Shown: positions 28,911-31,772 of the stretch, piece by piece | How positions within the stretch are numbered: the stretch's first letter is position 1 | Layout of the letters: every line of letters starts with the position of its first letter | NCBI GenBank assembly: GCA_965228485.1 | Contig: OZ245819.1 | Location: 150,001-182,000 of the forward strand | From: Candidatus Saccharimonadota bacterium | Lineage (GTDB): Bacteria > Patescibacteriota > Gracilibacteria > UBA4473 | Length of the DNA stretch: 32,000 bases | Direction: 5' to 3' | The notes under the pieces: model-generated | Databases searched by the model: none | What the model saw: the letters and a program-made list of their open reading frames with translations, nothing else | Told to the model about the DNA's origin: nothing | Translations under genes and position numbers: made by a program

Positions 28911-28940
28911 TTGCTTGTGGGGATGTGTTTGAATTAGAAT
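28911..28940 (+). promoter_or_regulatory. Sigma70-like promoter for msrA
   Basis: TTGCTT (28911-28916), 18-nt spacer, TAGAAT (28935-28940). The -10 box overlaps ATG 28939 and ends 7 nt before the in-frame ATG 28948, which favours 28948 as a leaderless start. Confidence 0.35.
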
Positions 28941-29631
28941 GTTTGAGATGACAAAACACACGAAGAAGTATTTGGGGGTAGCGCTGTTCTTTTTGGGAAT
29001 GGCTGTTTTGGGAGTATTGGCGTATGAATTTACCCCTAAATACACCGCTCATAAATCTACCGAAATTCCTATGACCCAAACTCTAAACGCTACCACAAAC
29101 CAAACCGAAGCCATTGCTATTTTCTCGGGTGGATGTTTTTGGTGCTCGGAAAATCATTTCGAGAAACTAGAGGGCGTCACAGAGGTGATTTCAGGCTACA
29201 CAGGAGGCTCGGAAGAAGACCCAACCTACAAAGAGGTGTCTTCAGGCACAACGGGGCACAAAGAGGGGGTTTTGGTGAAATACAATCCTCAGGTGGTTTC
29301 TTATAACGAATTGGTGGATCATTTTTGGATGCACGTAAACCCAACCGATAGTGGGGGACAGTTCTATGATCGTGGTTCTCAGTACACCACGGCGATTTAT
29401 TATCTTGATGATGCTCAGAAAGACATTGCTACAAAAAATAAGAAGGCTCTCAGTGAAGCAGGTATTTATGAGAGTCCGATTGTTACCCCGATTCTACCAG
29501 CCAGGGATTTCTACCCAGCCGAAGACTATCATCAGGACTATTCGAAAAAGAATCCATTACGTTACAAATACTACACCGATGGTTCGGGGAGATATCAGTT
29601 TGTAGAGTCGGTTTGGGGGGAGGAGGATTAA
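28939..29631 (+). CDS. msrA: Peptide-methionine (S)-S-oxide reductase MsrA with N-terminal membrane anchor
   Basis: 'GGCFWCSENHFEKLEGVTEVISGYTGG' and 'YHQDY' are MsrA signatures. They are preceded by the TM helix 'YLGVALFFLGMAVLGVLAY'. The start is either ATG 28939 or ATG 28948. Confidence 0.9.
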   Translation: MFEMTKHTKKYLGVALFFLGMAVLGVLAYEFTPKYTAHKSTEIPMTQTLNATTNQTEAIAIFSGGCFWCSENHFEKLEGVTEVISGYTGGSEEDPTYKEVSSGTTGHKEGVLVKYNPQVVSYNELVDHFWMHVNPTDSGGQFYDRGSQYTTAIYYLDDAQKDIATKNKKALSEAGIYESPIVTPILPARDFYPAEDYHQDYSKKNPLRYKYYTDGSGRYQFVESVWGEED

Positions 29632-29711
29632 GATTTGATTAAGGTTTGTTCTTTAAAAATCTTGATAATAGATTCTAATTGATATATCTGTTTTTAACCT
29701 CAGATGTTAGA

Positions 29712-30398
29712 ATGAAGGTTCGTGAGAAAATACAACTTATTTCTGATATCGCTCAATTTTTTCAAGATAACTATAGCTATAATAAGATTTCTGAAATTTT
29801 ATCATATTTTGATTTACCTGAAAATGGAGATTACAATGGACCAAATAGTAAACGCCTGTATACAGAACATAAACTAAGAGGCGTTTCAGATGAAGTTATT
29901 CTTCAGATTGCCGAAGACTTTGATGTTCCTTTTACAATAACCAGGGATGGAACTGTGTTACCAAGAAATTGGCAAGATGATTCAAGTGTTAAGATTTTTA
30001 TTAGTCATTTATCAAAAGATAAAGATATAGCCAATAAAATAAAAAAAGAGTTATCTAATTATAATGCTACTTCGTTTGTCGCTCATGAAGATATTCATCC
30101 TACATCGGAATGGGAGAAAGAAATAAAAAAAGCTTTATCCACTATGGATATTTTTATATCTGTGCATACTTTAGGATTTTCTAAAAGTGTATGGTGTCAA
30201 CAGGAAGTTGGTTATGCAATTGGTTCTGGAAAGAAGGTTATTCCCGTAAAGTTTAATGAAAATCCACCAGGTTTTCTTTCTTCAATTCAAGCTCTTCCAC
30301 GTGGTAAAAAGACAGCCAAAGAGTTAATAGAAATTATCTTATTAATTTTAAAAGATGATAAAAATACTAATGAATTATATAAAAAATTACTAAATTAA
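29712..30398 (+). CDS. TIR-domain protein with an unassigned ~90-100-aa N-terminal domain
   Basis: The ORF opens at TTG 29679 and the first ATG is at 29712. The C-terminal region from about nt 29988 has the bacterial TIR pattern 'KIFISHLSKDKDIANKIKKEL...FVAHEDIHPTSEWEKEIKKAL..MDIFISVHT..FSKSVWCQQEVGYAIGSGKKVIPV'. The putative catalytic Glu is in 'WCQQE' at nt 30204-30206. Confidence 0.75.
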   Translation: MKVREKIQLISDIAQFFQDNYSYNKISEILSYFDLPENGDYNGPNSKRLYTEHKLRGVSDEVILQIAEDFDVPFTITRDGTVLPRNWQDDSSVKIFISHLSKDKDIANKIKKELSNYNATSFVAHEDIHPTSEWEKEIKKALSTMDIFISVHTLGFSKSVWCQQEVGYAIGSGKKVIPVKFNENPPGFLSSIQALPRGKKTAKELIEIILLILKDDKNTNELYKKLLN

Positions 30399-30404
30399 AT
30401 TTTA

Positions 30405-31529
30405 ATGACTGAATACAAAATACAGATATATGAAAAGAAAAAATATATTAGAAAATTAACTTTTTTGAATTTAAAAGAAGAGGTTACAAATTTTATGTAC
30501 AAAAGAACGGTTGCCGCCTCTTCCAGAGGTGATTTGTTATTTTTTGTTTTAATATTTTTTCTTTCTATCAAGTCAGAAAATAGCTCAAATTCTTTATTAA
30601 AGGATTTATTAGAGCAAAATATTGGGAGGTTAAAACTACTTAACGAAATGTTTGCAACAAAGAAAAATCAATTAAAAAAATATGAATATCGGGAGGTGGT
30701 TGAATCTTTAGGGCTTCAAAACTTGGTTAAGTATGATGTTATATTTTTGCTTATTGAGGCCATTGAGAATGCAGATTTATTAGAAGTAAAATATCGTGAT
30801 TATTTTTTAATGAATCCAGAATTGCTTAATCAATTAAATTACATTGTGGATTCTCATGGGAAAGATTTGTCAGAATTTTATACTGTTTTTAAGGGATTTG
30901 ATATAGAGGATGATAGATACAATTCAATTACTGGTCATTATTTAGATTTAAGTAAAAGTGTTTACCGTCCTATAAAAATGCGGACACGTCGGAAATTGGA
31001 TATCTCTTTGCAGCAATTTACAGAAATCACTCGAATTAAAAGTGAGAGTCCAATTCTTGTTGAGTTTATTCAATCTATTGATCCTCAAATAATTTTTGAA
31101 TTATGGGATAAGTATCATTTAGCTTCTTATATCCAATCGGTTTGGGTTGAAGCAAATAATTCACCTATAATTTCAAACTTTATAGGAGGCGGTGCTGCTG
31201 GAAGTATAGTGGCTTGGATTCAATGGAAAAATACGAAAGATCCAAATGAAAAAGATTTAATAAAAAAAGAGTTAGATAAACAAAAAGTGCTTTTTTTGGA
31301 AAGAGAAAACGAACTTCTTCGAGCTTTAAATCATTCGATAAAAACTACCCCTGAAAAATTAGCTAATGAAGTTAAGAAATTAAGAGAGGAGATATTAATT
31401 TTGAGAGAAAAAGAAAAAACAAAAGAGGAAAAAAGAATATACTCTTCTTTAAAGTTAGAGTTAAGAAATCTTGAAAATTTATCTGTGGTTGTGAACGATA
31501 AAATAGATTCGGAGATTACTGATTTTTAA
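30405..31529 (+). CDS. Hypothetical protein (374 aa) partnered with the TIR gene
   Basis: ATG lies 6 nt after the TIR stop. There are a short hydrophobic stretch 'LLFFVLIFFLSI', a Gly-rich hydrophobic segment 'IISNFIGGGAAGSIVAWIQW' and a K/E/L-rich coiled-coil-like C-terminus 'EKLANEVKKLREEILILREKEKTKEEK'. I see no known catalytic motif. Confidence 0.6.
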   Translation: MTEYKIQIYEKKKYIRKLTFLNLKEEVTNFMYKRTVAASSRGDLLFFVLIFFLSIKSENSSNSLLKDLLEQNIGRLKLLNEMFATKKNQLKKYEYREVVESLGLQNLVKYDVIFLLIEAIENADLLEVKYRDYFLMNPELLNQLNYIVDSHGKDLSEFYTVFKGFDIEDDRYNSITGHYLDLSKSVYRPIKMRTRRKLDISLQQFTEITRIKSESPILVEFIQSIDPQIIFELWDKYHLASYIQSVWVEANNSPIISNFIGGGAAGSIVAWIQWKNTKDPNEKDLIKKELDKQKVLFLERENELLRALNHSIKTTPEKLANEVKKLREEILILREKEKTKEEKRIYSSLKLELRNLENLSVVVNDKIDSEITDF

Positions 31530-31642
31530 TTTTTGATATAAATTTAAGAGAAAGGATGGGATTACTTAAGCTTTTGAAAAGTTTTTAGCGTGACTGTGTA
31601 TCGAACTCATCTTTCAGATACGGGTTCTCATTCTAACCAATA

Positions 31643-31681
31643 CAAAAATAGTTTTAGACTTGAAAGCCCAAAACTATTTTC
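31643..31681 (-). terminator. Intrinsic-terminator-like hairpin after tRNA-Ser
   Basis: A perfect 11-bp stem pairs aaaatagtttt (31645-31655) with aaaactatttt (31670-31680) around a 14-nt loop. It starts 2 nt after the CCA end and is followed by 'tttttg' on the minus strand, where the first four t pair within the stem. Confidence 0.6.
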
Positions 31682-31682
31682 G

Positions 31683-31772
31683 TGGCGGAGAGGATGGGAT
31701 TCGAACCCACGGTACCATTGCTGGTACACTCCCTTAGCAGGGGAGCGCTTTCGACCACTCAGCCACCTCTCC
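31683..31772 (-). tRNA. tRNA-Ser (anticodon GCT), CCA encoded
   Basis: The reverse complement reads GGAGAGGTGGCTGAGTGGTCGAAAGCGCTCCCCTGCTAAGGGAG-TGTACCAGCAATGGTACC-GTGGGTTCGAATCCCATCCTCTCCGCCA. It has a long variable arm and a CT-GCT-AA anticodon loop. Confidence 0.9.

What the first reader, a model, noticed from the sequence alone, without database searches (positions are those of the whole stretch)
29632..31682. AT-rich two-gene TIR cassette next to the 3' end of tRNA-Ser: candidate novel TIR-based defence system
The interval between msrA and tRNA-Ser holds just two co-directional genes separated by 6 nt: a TIR-domain protein and a 374-aa protein of unknown family. Composition changes abruptly here. 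My hand counts of single 60-nt lines give about 12%, 18% and 30% G+C inside the cassette (lines 30361, 30001 and 30721). The msrA and eno lines I counted (29161, 23401) give about 53% and 47%. The cassette sits immediately downstream of the 3' end of a tRNA gene, a classic landing site for acquired DNA. Bacterial TIR proteins are established NAD+-consuming or signal-producing components of anti-phage systems, for example Thoeris ThsB with a ThsA effector. The partner here shows none of the SIR2, SLOG or Macro motifs I would recognise in ThsA. It has hydrophobic, Gly-rich segments and a long coiled coil instead. This suggests a Thoeris-like logic with a new effector or sensor, in a lineage where defence systems are sparsely described.
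Basis: partly seen in the sequence, partly recalled or inferred. Interest (0 to 1): 0.8.

Follow-up and report, generated by a model that had tools for sequence, protein, structure and literature searches.

The report
TIR gene plus orphan restriction-linked gene
A small AT-rich insert beside a tRNA gene in a Gracilibacteria genome carries a genuine TIR immune-type gene and an unrelated orphan gene; the two are not a dedicated pair, because in other tiny-genome (CPR) bacteria the orphan gene sits directly behind many different restriction and defence enzymes.

Summary
Two co-directional genes lie 6 nt apart between msrA and the 3' end of tRNA-Ser, in the most AT-rich 2 kb of the window (28.6% vs 38% G+C).

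**Gene A** (29712-30398) is a confident TIR_2 protein. It has the TIR fold and the invariant catalytic Glu at nt 30204-30206.

**Gene B** (30405-31529) belongs to a small orphan family found almost only in CPR bacteria. Its predicted fold is confident but matches nothing in PDB or BFVD.

- No other B homologue (about 22 distinct contexts) has a TIR neighbour.
- No TIR homologue (11 loci) has a B neighbour.

Instead, B sits 3-8 nt after, or overlapping, many different genes: HsdR, HsdM, type III Res, a type II HNH enzyme, GmrSD-HNH and a Schlafen-type helicase. It also occurs alone on Rep/serine-recombinase elements. Close B relatives have different partners.

The TIR family is stand-alone elsewhere, often on prophages or satellites.

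Best reading: an acquired islet of two autonomous defence-associated modules. The interesting part is B, a new restriction-linked gene family of unknown biochemistry.

The parts
29712..30398 (+). Gene A: stand-alone TIR-domain protein, 228 aa. It has an N-terminal four-helix domain (residues 3-69), a conserved linker (LPRNW here, PPKNW in the family consensus) and a TIR domain (residues about 93-215). The longest ORF starts at TTG 29679.
   Evidence: Pfam TIR_2 E 1.8e-17. AF2 model pLDDT 90.3. Foldseek against PDB finds SARM1, SPARTA, BtpA, AbTir and SpbK TIR domains, all with probability 1.00. There are 74 homologues, and those aligned begin at MKVxEK.
30204..30206 (+). GAA codon for the putative catalytic glutamate (E165 of the 228-aa protein; E176 counted from TTG 29679).
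   Evidence: The column is invariant in 40 aligned homologues, inside the motif W161-C-Q-Q164-E165-V-G167. That this Glu is the catalytic one rests on established knowledge of TIR NADases and was not tested here.
30405..31529 (+). Gene B: 374-aa member of an orphan family found almost only in CPR bacteria. It is recurrently placed directly behind restriction or defence genes. It is a mixed alpha/beta protein with a helical C-terminal third. Invariant residues are Y95, D111, F114, D169, R171, D181, S183, K184, S185, M192, R193, S215, P216, Q223 and Y242.
   Evidence: 47 homologues. 49 representatives among 1.84 billion proteins, the full-length ones all about 360-400 aa with no added domain. 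Alignment. AF2 pLDDT 87.8, pTM 0.85. No PDB or BFVD fold match at E<=0.001. Contexts.
30399..30404 (+). 6-nt spacer between the stop of gene A and the start of gene B.
   Evidence: In other loci the gap to the upstream gene is -4 to +8 nt in nine contexts.
31683..31772 (-). tRNA-Ser (anticodon GCT). Its 3' end faces the cassette.
   Evidence: ARAGORN.
31647..31678 (-). AT-rich hairpin (AATAGTTTT / AAAACTATT) followed on the minus strand by TTTTTG. It is a likely terminator of tRNA-Ser and marks the native edge of the tRNA locus.
   Evidence: Read from the sequence. It lies within inverted repeat I1. The consensus terminator scan, which needs 3 G-C pairs, does not flag it.
31550..31563 (+). 14-nt copy (13/14) of part of the tRNA-Ser 3' half (31688-31701). 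It is a possible att remnant of weak significance.
   Evidence: Repeat D12. No longer copy of the tRNA 3' end exists anywhere in the window at up to 3 mismatches. My estimate is that about 0.5 such matches would arise by chance in 2.7 kb.

Best explanation
The interval is a small horizontally acquired defence islet holding two autonomous modules. It is not a dedicated TIR-plus-effector system.

**Module 1 (gene A).** A single-protein sensor-effector. An N-terminal helical domain is joined to a TIR domain with an intact catalytic Glu. Inferred: on infection the TIR domains assemble and hydrolyse NAD+, causing abortive infection as in SpbK, SARM1 or SPARTA-type TIRs.

**Module 2 (gene B).** A member of an orphan family found almost only in CPR bacteria. 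It attaches to the 3' side of whatever defence operon or mobile-element cargo region it lands in, and is co-translated with that operon. Inferred: it acts on its own as an additional anti-phage or anti-mobile-element protein. A conserved polar cluster (D169, R171, D181, S183-K184-S185, R193, Q223, Y242) on a central beta-sheet would be its active or ligand site, and the C-terminal helices would drive oligomerisation.

**Shown:** TIR identity and fold, compositional foreignness, lack of co-conservation of the pair, and B's recurrent defence and mobile-element neighbourhoods.

**Inferred:** NADase activity, any defence phenotype, and B's biochemistry.
For: **TIR identity**
-.
- TIR homologues are stand-alone in variable contexts: beside an RDD gene among housekeeping genes; inside an integrase/AlpA/DUF3987 element in Devosia; beside mutS; and in 7 IMG/VR viral contigs.

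**B's neighbours**
- B homologues sit directly after HsdR, GmrSD_N-HNH, type III Res, a SLFN-g3 helicase, a type II HNH enzyme, HsdM and an HsdM/S fusion.
- B occurs with no co-directional upstream partner next to serine recombinases or rolling-circle Rep genes.
- A recognised restriction or defence enzyme is an immediate operon neighbour in 11 of about 22 distinct contexts, and lies within 3 kb in 14.

**Independence of B**
- B is lower in G+C than its surroundings in all 21 loci measured.
- The B tree mixes partner types. B copies linked to type I systems fall in three separate clades, and near relatives sit next to GmrSD, type III Res or nothing.
- No B occurs in TIR loci and no TIR in other B loci.
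Against: - The 6-nt spacing implies co-transcription and probably translational coupling of A and B in this genome, so a local functional link cannot be excluded.
- The window's TIR protein uniquely lacks the conserved acidic-IPF C-terminal tail of its family, and it ends exactly where B begins. B or its insertion may therefore have altered how this TIR is regulated.
- No defence phenotype is known for either family.
- B has no detectable catalytic motif of a known class.
- Defence association is by neighbourhood only, and the sample is about 22 contexts.
- There is no integrase or clear att site in the window, and no empty-site comparison was possible because synteny with the nearest genome breaks before msrA.
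Confidence: 0.55

Rival explanations
1. B is a general second-line 'guard' or accessory that works together with whichever defence enzyme lies upstream, here the TIR protein. This would resemble PrrC, which is silenced by its linked type I R-M enzyme and released when a phage inhibits that enzyme.
For: B is embedded inside type I R-M operons in four independent loci: between hsdR and hsdM, or between hsdM and hsdS. Gaps to the upstream gene are -4 to +8 nt in nine contexts, which suggests coupled expression. PrrC and RloC set the precedent for R-M-linked suicide modules (papers PMC2610378 and PMC3458546, listed).
Against: A guard that reads its partner by protein contact should co-evolve with that partner. 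Instead, close B relatives (same clade) sit behind GmrSD-HNH, type III Res or nothing, and type I-linked copies are only 35-40% identical and fall in separate clades. At least seven structurally unrelated partner classes are involved. Six or more contexts have no co-directional upstream gene at all. B has no ABC ATPase or nuclease domain of the PrrC/RloC type.
Confidence: 0.2
2. A and B form a Thoeris-like system in which the TIR protein makes a nucleotide signal and B is a new effector or sensor.
For: The two genes are adjacent and co-directional with a 6-nt gap. The TIR gives weak hits to ThsB profiles (PADLOC E 4e-8; NCBIfam Thoeris type III ThcB4 E 2.5e-10, 39.7 bits against a cutoff of 220). 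New Thoeris effectors of unknown domain do exist. B has a hydrophobic Gly-rich segment that could insert into a membrane.
Against: The pair occurs once. There is no TIR beside any other B and no B beside any other TIR. B mostly accompanies R-M enzymes, which make no nucleotide signal. The hydrophobic segment is absent from about half of the family. B has no SLOG, Macro, SIR2, SAVED or other known signal-binding domain or fold. The ThsB and ThcB4 scores are far below family cutoffs and cover only the generic TIR core.
Confidence: 0.07
3. B is not an immune gene. It is a maintenance, exclusion or addiction function of small CPR integrative elements (Rep plus serine recombinase) and of mobile R-M cassettes, and it has hitch-hiked into this islet.
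For: B lies beside serine recombinases and/or rolling-circle Rep genes in at least seven contexts. It is always AT-richer than its flanks. Truncated B remnants occur at one chromosomal site in three contigs.
Against: In the window and in several other loci there is no recombinase or Rep within reach. B sits inside operons, between hsd genes with overlapping or 4-nt junctions, which fits a long-term operon member better than an element backbone gene. It is absent from IMG/VR viral contigs.
Confidence: 0.12

Closest known systems
SpbK (Bacillus subtilis ICEBs1): a single-gene TIR NADase abortive-infection protein
   Same: Both are single polypeptides with a non-TIR N-terminal domain followed by a C-terminal TIR, and relatives of gene A are carried on mobile elements. 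The SpbK filament structure 9phb is among the Foldseek hits for gene A (rank 37, probability 1.00). SpbK is an NADase acting by abortive infection (PMC12847820, abstract).
   Different: There is no family-level sequence relationship. The PADLOC spbK profile matches only residues 100-126 at E 7e-4. The N-terminal domain differs. The trigger is unknown. Most of the gene A family ends in an SSB-like acidic-IPF tail, which I am not aware of in SpbK.
Thoeris (ThsB TIR plus ThsA or another effector), types I-XI
   Same: Both have a TIR protein with the catalytic Glu and a small adjacent gene of unknown domain. In both, the gene pair lies in a defence-type setting.
   Different: Thoeris types are defined by recurrent TIR-effector adjacency. 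Here the adjacency is unique. The neighbour is mostly linked to R-M enzymes and has no known signal-binding domain.
PrrC and RloC, and other 'restriction-linked ORFs' embedded in type I R-M loci
   Same: A non-R-M gene is inserted between hsd genes and co-expressed with them. It is plausibly a second layer of defence.
   Different: B has no ABC ATPase or anticodon-nuclease domain and is not restricted to type I systems. It also follows type II, III and IV enzymes, a Schlafen-type helicase and a TIR protein. Its fold has no PDB or BFVD match. Its phylogeny ignores partner type.
tRNA-adjacent genomic islets and defence hotspots
   Same: An AT-rich pair of non-core genes lies at the 3' end of a tRNA gene, between housekeeping genes.
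   Different: There is no integrase and no clear flanking direct repeats. The islet is only 2 kb.

Membership tests
Pfam TIR_2 (PF13676) / TIR fold | Profile score above the gathering cutoff | tested here: met
   64.4 bits against a cutoff of 28, E 1.8e-17, residues 106-206 of the 239-aa ORF.
Pfam TIR_2 (PF13676) / TIR fold | Flavodoxin-like TIR fold | tested here: met
   AF2 pLDDT 90.3 with alternating strands and helices. Foldseek probability is 1.00 to the SARM1, SPARTA, BtpA, AbTir and SpbK TIR domains.
Enzymatically active TIR (NADase or cyclase) | Conserved catalytic glutamate in the W-x-x-x-E helix | tested here: met
   E165 is invariant in 40 homologues, in the motif W-C/T-Q-Q-E. Equating it with the catalytic Glu of SARM1, AbTir and plant TIRs rests on established knowledge.
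Enzymatically active TIR (NADase or cyclase) | NAD+ cleavage or cADPR-isomer production | not testable with these tools
   Needs biochemistry.
Thoeris | The TIR gene is recurrently adjacent to the same effector gene across genomes | tested here: not met
   No B occurs in 11 TIR-homologue loci, and no TIR occurs in about 40 B loci other than the window.
Thoeris | The effector carries a signal-binding or killing domain of a known type (SIR2-SLOG, Macro, and so on) | tested here: not met
   No Pfam, PADLOC or NCBIfam family matches any of the 47 members. No PDB or BFVD fold match.
Thoeris | ThsB family membership by curated profile | tested here: not met
   NCBIfam ThcB4 scores 39.7 bits against a cutoff of 220. 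Pfam ThsB_TIR scores 16.7 against a cutoff of 21.2. The PADLOC ThsB hits (E 4e-8) cover only the generic TIR core.
SpbK-like stand-alone TIR abortive-infection proteins | Single-gene occurrence in variable, often mobile-element, contexts | tested here: met
SpbK-like stand-alone TIR abortive-infection proteins | Sequence membership in the SpbK family | tested here: not met
   PADLOC spbK E 7e-4 over 27 residues only.
PrrC/RloC-type R-M-linked guards (considered for gene B) | Embedded in an R-M operon | tested here: met
   Met for B homologues in four independent type I loci, plus type II, III and IV loci. In the window itself the neighbour is TIR, not an R-M enzyme.
PrrC/RloC-type R-M-linked guards (considered for gene B) | N-terminal ABC ATPase and C-terminal anticodon-nuclease domains | tested here: not met
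   No such domains at E<=1 in any member.
tRNA-integrated genomic island | Compositional deviation and a position at the tRNA 3' end | tested here: met
tRNA-integrated genomic island | Integrase and flanking direct repeats that duplicate the tRNA 3' end | tested here: not met
   No integrase lies between msrA and the tRNA. Only a 13/14-nt match exists, 138 nt from the tRNA copy, and no longer copy is present. The window ends 228 nt beyond the tRNA, so the far side is unseen.
tRNA-integrated genomic island | Absence from the same site in related genomes | tested here: inconclusive
   In the nearest available genome (enolase 78% identical), synteny ends before msrA, and msrA, TIR and B are not in the 21-kb locus fetched.

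The most novel reading that the evidence does not exclude
Gene B founds a new immune protein family, found almost only in CPR bacteria, with a previously unseen fold. It would act as a portable, partner-independent add-on layer that plugs into the 3' end of almost any restriction or defence operon (types I, II, III and IV R-M, a Schlafen-type helicase, TIR). In this reading, the window's TIR, which has lost its family's SSB-like tail exactly at the junction with B, has become functionally dependent on B.
Probability: 0.3. Interest if true: 0.75.

Novelty: new variant of a known kind. Interest (0 to 1): 0.55.

Why it matters
CPR/Patescibacteria make up a large share of bacterial diversity. They have tiny genomes, mostly lack CRISPR and rely heavily on restriction-modification, and almost no lineage-specific defence genes are known for them.

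A gene family found almost only in this radiation, with no detectable relatives by sequence or fold, repeatedly sits inside or directly behind at least seven unrelated kinds of defence gene. That makes it a concrete, testable candidate for a CPR-specific immune or anti-mobile-element function.

The result also shows why a single adjacency is weak evidence for a 'system'. The TIR gene here is a stand-alone module whose relatives travel on prophages and satellites. Most of those relatives carry an SSB-like C-terminal tail, which may point to how this class of TIR proteins is localised or triggered.

Tried and rejected
**Function of B from sequence.** Pfam, PADLOC, NCBIfam and PHROG searches were run on the window protein, and the first three on all 47 members. 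Only scattered weak hits appeared (ZapG-like, LapA, phasin, phrog_3671), all on the C-terminal hydrophobic/helical stretch, and none was consistent. An A1 profile search against PDB sequences gave nothing below E = 1.

**Function of B from structure.**
- Foldseek against PDB and BFVD gave no hit at E<=0.001 and TM-scores of 0.2 or less.
- IS200/IS608 TnpA recurs among the weak hits (probability 0.16 or less). I rejected it because B has no HUH motif and the TM-scores are low.

**B as an integral membrane protein.** Rejected. The hydrophobic peak moves between members, and the Gly-rich segment is replaced by a polar one in about half of them. The model pairs the N- and C-terminal strands.

**HEPN or PD-(D/E)xK assignment from the D-D-R-Y-D-E...D-L-S-K-S motif.** Considered by eye. 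It was not adopted because the His is not conserved, the spacing is atypical and there is no fold support.

**B as a discrete cassette with conserved ends.** No conserved nucleotides were found upstream or downstream of B across 21 loci.

**att site.** Only a 13/14-nt repeat was found.

**Empty-site comparison.** It failed because synteny is broken.

**Exact look-up of the window's own contig.** Not on record.

**Genetic code 25.** Considered because the lineage is Gracilibacteria. Neither gene contains an in-frame TGA, so the translations are unaffected.
Full report
**1. What is in the sequence**

Between msrA and tRNA-Ser lie two co-directional ORFs: 29679-30398 and 30405-31529, separated by 6 nt.
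- msrA is 28939-29631 (PMSR, E 4e-59).
- tRNA-Ser(GCT) is 31683-31772 on the minus strand.
- Homologues of the first ORF begin at the position of ATG 29712, so the gene is 29712-30398 and encodes 228 aa.

The interval is 28.6% G+C, the lowest 2-kb stretch of a 38.0% window. The two genes have the lowest G+C of 30 genes (z = -3.4 and -3.8) and low third-position G+C. Surrounding genes are housekeeping: ClpB, MscS, enolase, a nucleotidyl transferase, a TPR protein and MsrA. The enolase is 78% identical to enolases named Candidatus Gracilibacteria, so the window comes from that CPR lineage.

There is no integrase in the interval. The only repeat of the tRNA 3' half is a 13/14-nt match 138 nt away, which is close to chance expectation. 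'Acquired DNA' rests on composition and position, not on att sites or an empty-site comparison. That comparison failed because synteny with the nearest genome ends before msrA.

**2. Gene A is a real, probably active, stand-alone TIR protein**

- Pfam TIR_2 scores 64.4 bits against a cutoff of 28.
- The AF2 model is confident (pLDDT 90.3). It shows a four-helix N-terminal domain, a linker and a TIR domain.
- Foldseek matches SARM1, SPARTA TIR-APAZ, BtpA, a B. cereus TIR, AbTir and SpbK with probability 1.00.
- In 40 aligned homologues the Glu encoded at nt 30204-30206 is invariant within W-C/T-Q-Q-E, and every other invariant residue is present in the window's protein.
- Hits to Thoeris ThsB or ThcB4 profiles are far below family cutoffs and cover only the generic TIR core.

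The family has 74 members in the word-indexed search. Most are 230-250 aa with the same architecture, and they occur in unrelated phyla, for example Devosia and Deianiraea, and also in marine (TARA) metagenome contigs. Where context could be read, the gene stands alone among changing neighbours:
- after an RDD membrane protein between housekeeping genes;
- inside an integrase/AlpA/DUF3987 element in Devosia;
- beside mutS;
- on seven IMG/VR viral contigs, next to an integrase-like gene or phage-type genes, as judged from their sequences only.

The recent systematic Thoeris survey sets such stand-alone TIRs aside as likely NAD+-depleting effectors rather than signal generators. SpbK is the characterised example of a single-gene TIR NADase acting by abortive infection (PMC12847820).

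**3. Gene B is an orphan with a confident but unmatched fold**

- No Pfam, PADLOC, NCBIfam or PHROG family matches it or, consistently, any of its 47 homologues.
- An exhaustive profile search of 1.84 billion representatives finds only 49 proteins. The full-length ones are all about 360-400 aa with no added domain.
- Named sources are Gracilibacteria, Saccharibacteria, Campbellbacteria, Parcubacteria and 'Patescibacteria group', apart from one truncated fragment on a contig labelled Candidatus Azotimanducaceae.
- The family is absent from IMG/VR.
- The AF2 model is good (pLDDT 87.8, pTM 0.85). It has N- and C-terminal strands, helical bundles, a central sheet at residues 170-225 and a helical C-terminal third.
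- Foldseek finds nothing at E<=0.001 in PDB or BFVD. The PDB sequence profile search is also empty.
- Fifteen residues are invariant, concentrated in D-D-R-Y-D-E...D-L-S-K-S-V-Y-R...M-R and S-P...Q...Y. This argues for a specific active or binding site.
The other half has a polar segment there, so a conserved transmembrane topology is unlikely.

**4. The decisive result: B is not the TIR's partner**

Across about 22 distinct genomic contexts, B lies directly behind very different genes. The figure in brackets is the gap to the upstream gene.
- The TIR gene in the window (6 nt).
- HsdR, with HsdM overlapping its 3' end (4 nt).
- A GmrSD_N-HNH enzyme next to an EcoRI-type methylase (4 nt).
- Type III Res after Mod (4-nt overlap).
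- A SLFN-g3 helicase after a MazG-like gene (8 nt).
- A type II HNH endonuclease after two methylases (3 nt).
- HsdM, followed by a 164-aa gene and HsdS, in two loci (4-nt overlap).
- An HsdM/S fusion after HsdR (3 nt).

A recognised restriction or defence enzyme is an immediate operon neighbour in 11 of about 22 contexts, and lies within 3 kb in 14. For genomes in which such genes are a few per cent of the total (my estimate), this is a very strong enrichment.
- B is AT-richer than its flanks in all 21 loci measured.
- tblastn finds no TIR in any other B locus and no B in any TIR locus.
- A neighbour-joining tree of B proteins mixes partner types. Type I-linked copies fall in three clades at 35-40% identity. 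One tight clade contains copies behind GmrSD-HNH, behind type III Res and behind nothing. The window's B groups with the HsdR-linked copy from another Gracilibacteria genome.

B therefore changes neighbours faster than it diverges. This argues against a partner-specific physical coupling and against a role as receptor for a TIR-made signal.

**5. Mechanism**

*Shown:* TIR identity and an intact catalytic core; foreign composition; the unique A-B adjacency; B's recurrent defence and mobile-element neighbourhood; and B's independence from partner type.

*Inferred, most likely (about 0.55):* the islet holds two autonomous modules.
- Gene A is a sensor-effector NADase of the SpbK, SARM1 or SPARTA kind.
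- Gene B is a self-sufficient anti-phage or anti-mobile-element protein that gains expression by attaching to the 3' end of defence operons.
- B's conserved polar cluster would be the active or ligand site, and its helical C-terminus the oligomerisation element.

*Rivals:*
- A partner-agnostic 'guard' like PrrC (0.2). This is weakened by partner swapping, by partner-less copies and by the lack of PrrC/RloC domains.
- A mobile-element maintenance or exclusion function (0.12).

**6. A caveat that keeps a local link open**

About 50 of the 74 TIR homologues end in an acidic-(I/V)PF tail, for example DDDIPF, DDEIPF and EDDIPF. The consensus C-terminal tip of bacterial SSB is DDDIPF, and that tip mediates all the SSB-partner interactions investigated (PMC3045619). 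The window's protein stops about 12 residues short of this tail, 6 nt before B starts. The arrival of B may have removed the tail, or this lineage may simply be one of the minority of tail-less variants. I cannot tell which.

**7. Comparison with known systems and novelty**

Gene A is a new member of a known kind, the stand-alone TIR defence proteins. It is not a member of the SpbK or ThsB families by profile.

Gene B resembles the known phenomenon of restriction-linked ORFs such as PrrC and RloC. It differs in several ways:
- it is a different family with an unmatched fold;
- it is found almost only in CPR bacteria;
- it is not confined to one class of R-M system.

I rate the whole as a new variant of a known kind. 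The two-gene 'TIR system' claim is not supported. The orphan B family is the part worth following up.

Noticed in passing
Homologues of window 29712-30398 (P0049-P0121); the window protein ends at 30395: About 50 of 74 homologues of the TIR protein end in an acidic-(I/V)PF tail (DDDIPF, DDEIPF, EDDIPF and similar). This matches the conserved C-terminal tip of bacterial SSB that recruits SSB-interacting proteins. The window's copy lacks the tail and stops about 12 residues early, 6 nt before gene B. Two literature searches found no paper linking such a tail to TIR proteins.
   Followed up: partly
Whole window, 1-32000; also L056 and L001: All 30 long ORFs end in TAA (25) or TAG (5), and none in TGA. 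None contains an in-frame TGA when only TAA and TAG are treated as stops. TGA therefore seems avoided both as a stop and as a sense codon. This is unexpected for Gracilibacteria, which are known for code 25 (TGA = Gly). Long ORFs at two related Gracilibacteria loci show much the same pattern, apart from a few with one or two in-frame TGAs whose status was not checked.
   Followed up: partly
31550-31563 and 31688-31701: A 13/14-nt direct repeat of part of the tRNA-Ser 3' half lies just downstream of gene B. It could be an att remnant, but it is near chance expectation and brackets only 138 nt.
   Followed up: yes
L018 7130-7624 and L031 (downstream of B); also L040 and L048: In two independent type I R-M loci, B is followed by the same 164-aa gene (weak TnsA-like endonuclease hit, E 0.03) and then by HsdS. 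This suggests a two-gene insert (B plus the 164-aa gene) between hsdM and hsdS.
   Followed up: partly
L029, L034, L044 (also L017 and L036): B homologues sit on what look like small integrated elements of CPR bacteria. These carry a large serine recombinase plus a rolling-circle or CRESS-like Rep (Viral_Rep + RNA_helicase, or REP_ORF2-G2P).
   Followed up: no
L049 5001-5372, L050 and L020: Truncated remnants of B (46-123 aa) lie next to the same housekeeping-looking 390-aa gene in three contigs, one of them labelled Azotimanducaceae. These may be decayed copies or contig-edge artefacts.
   Followed up: no
L016 5155-5727 (also L038): A 190-aa protein lies upstream of one B copy. It gives a weak TIR-like match to gene A (E 0.13 in a small local BLAST) and has a ribbon-helix-helix-like C-terminus. 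This is unresolved and probably not significant.
   Followed up: partly
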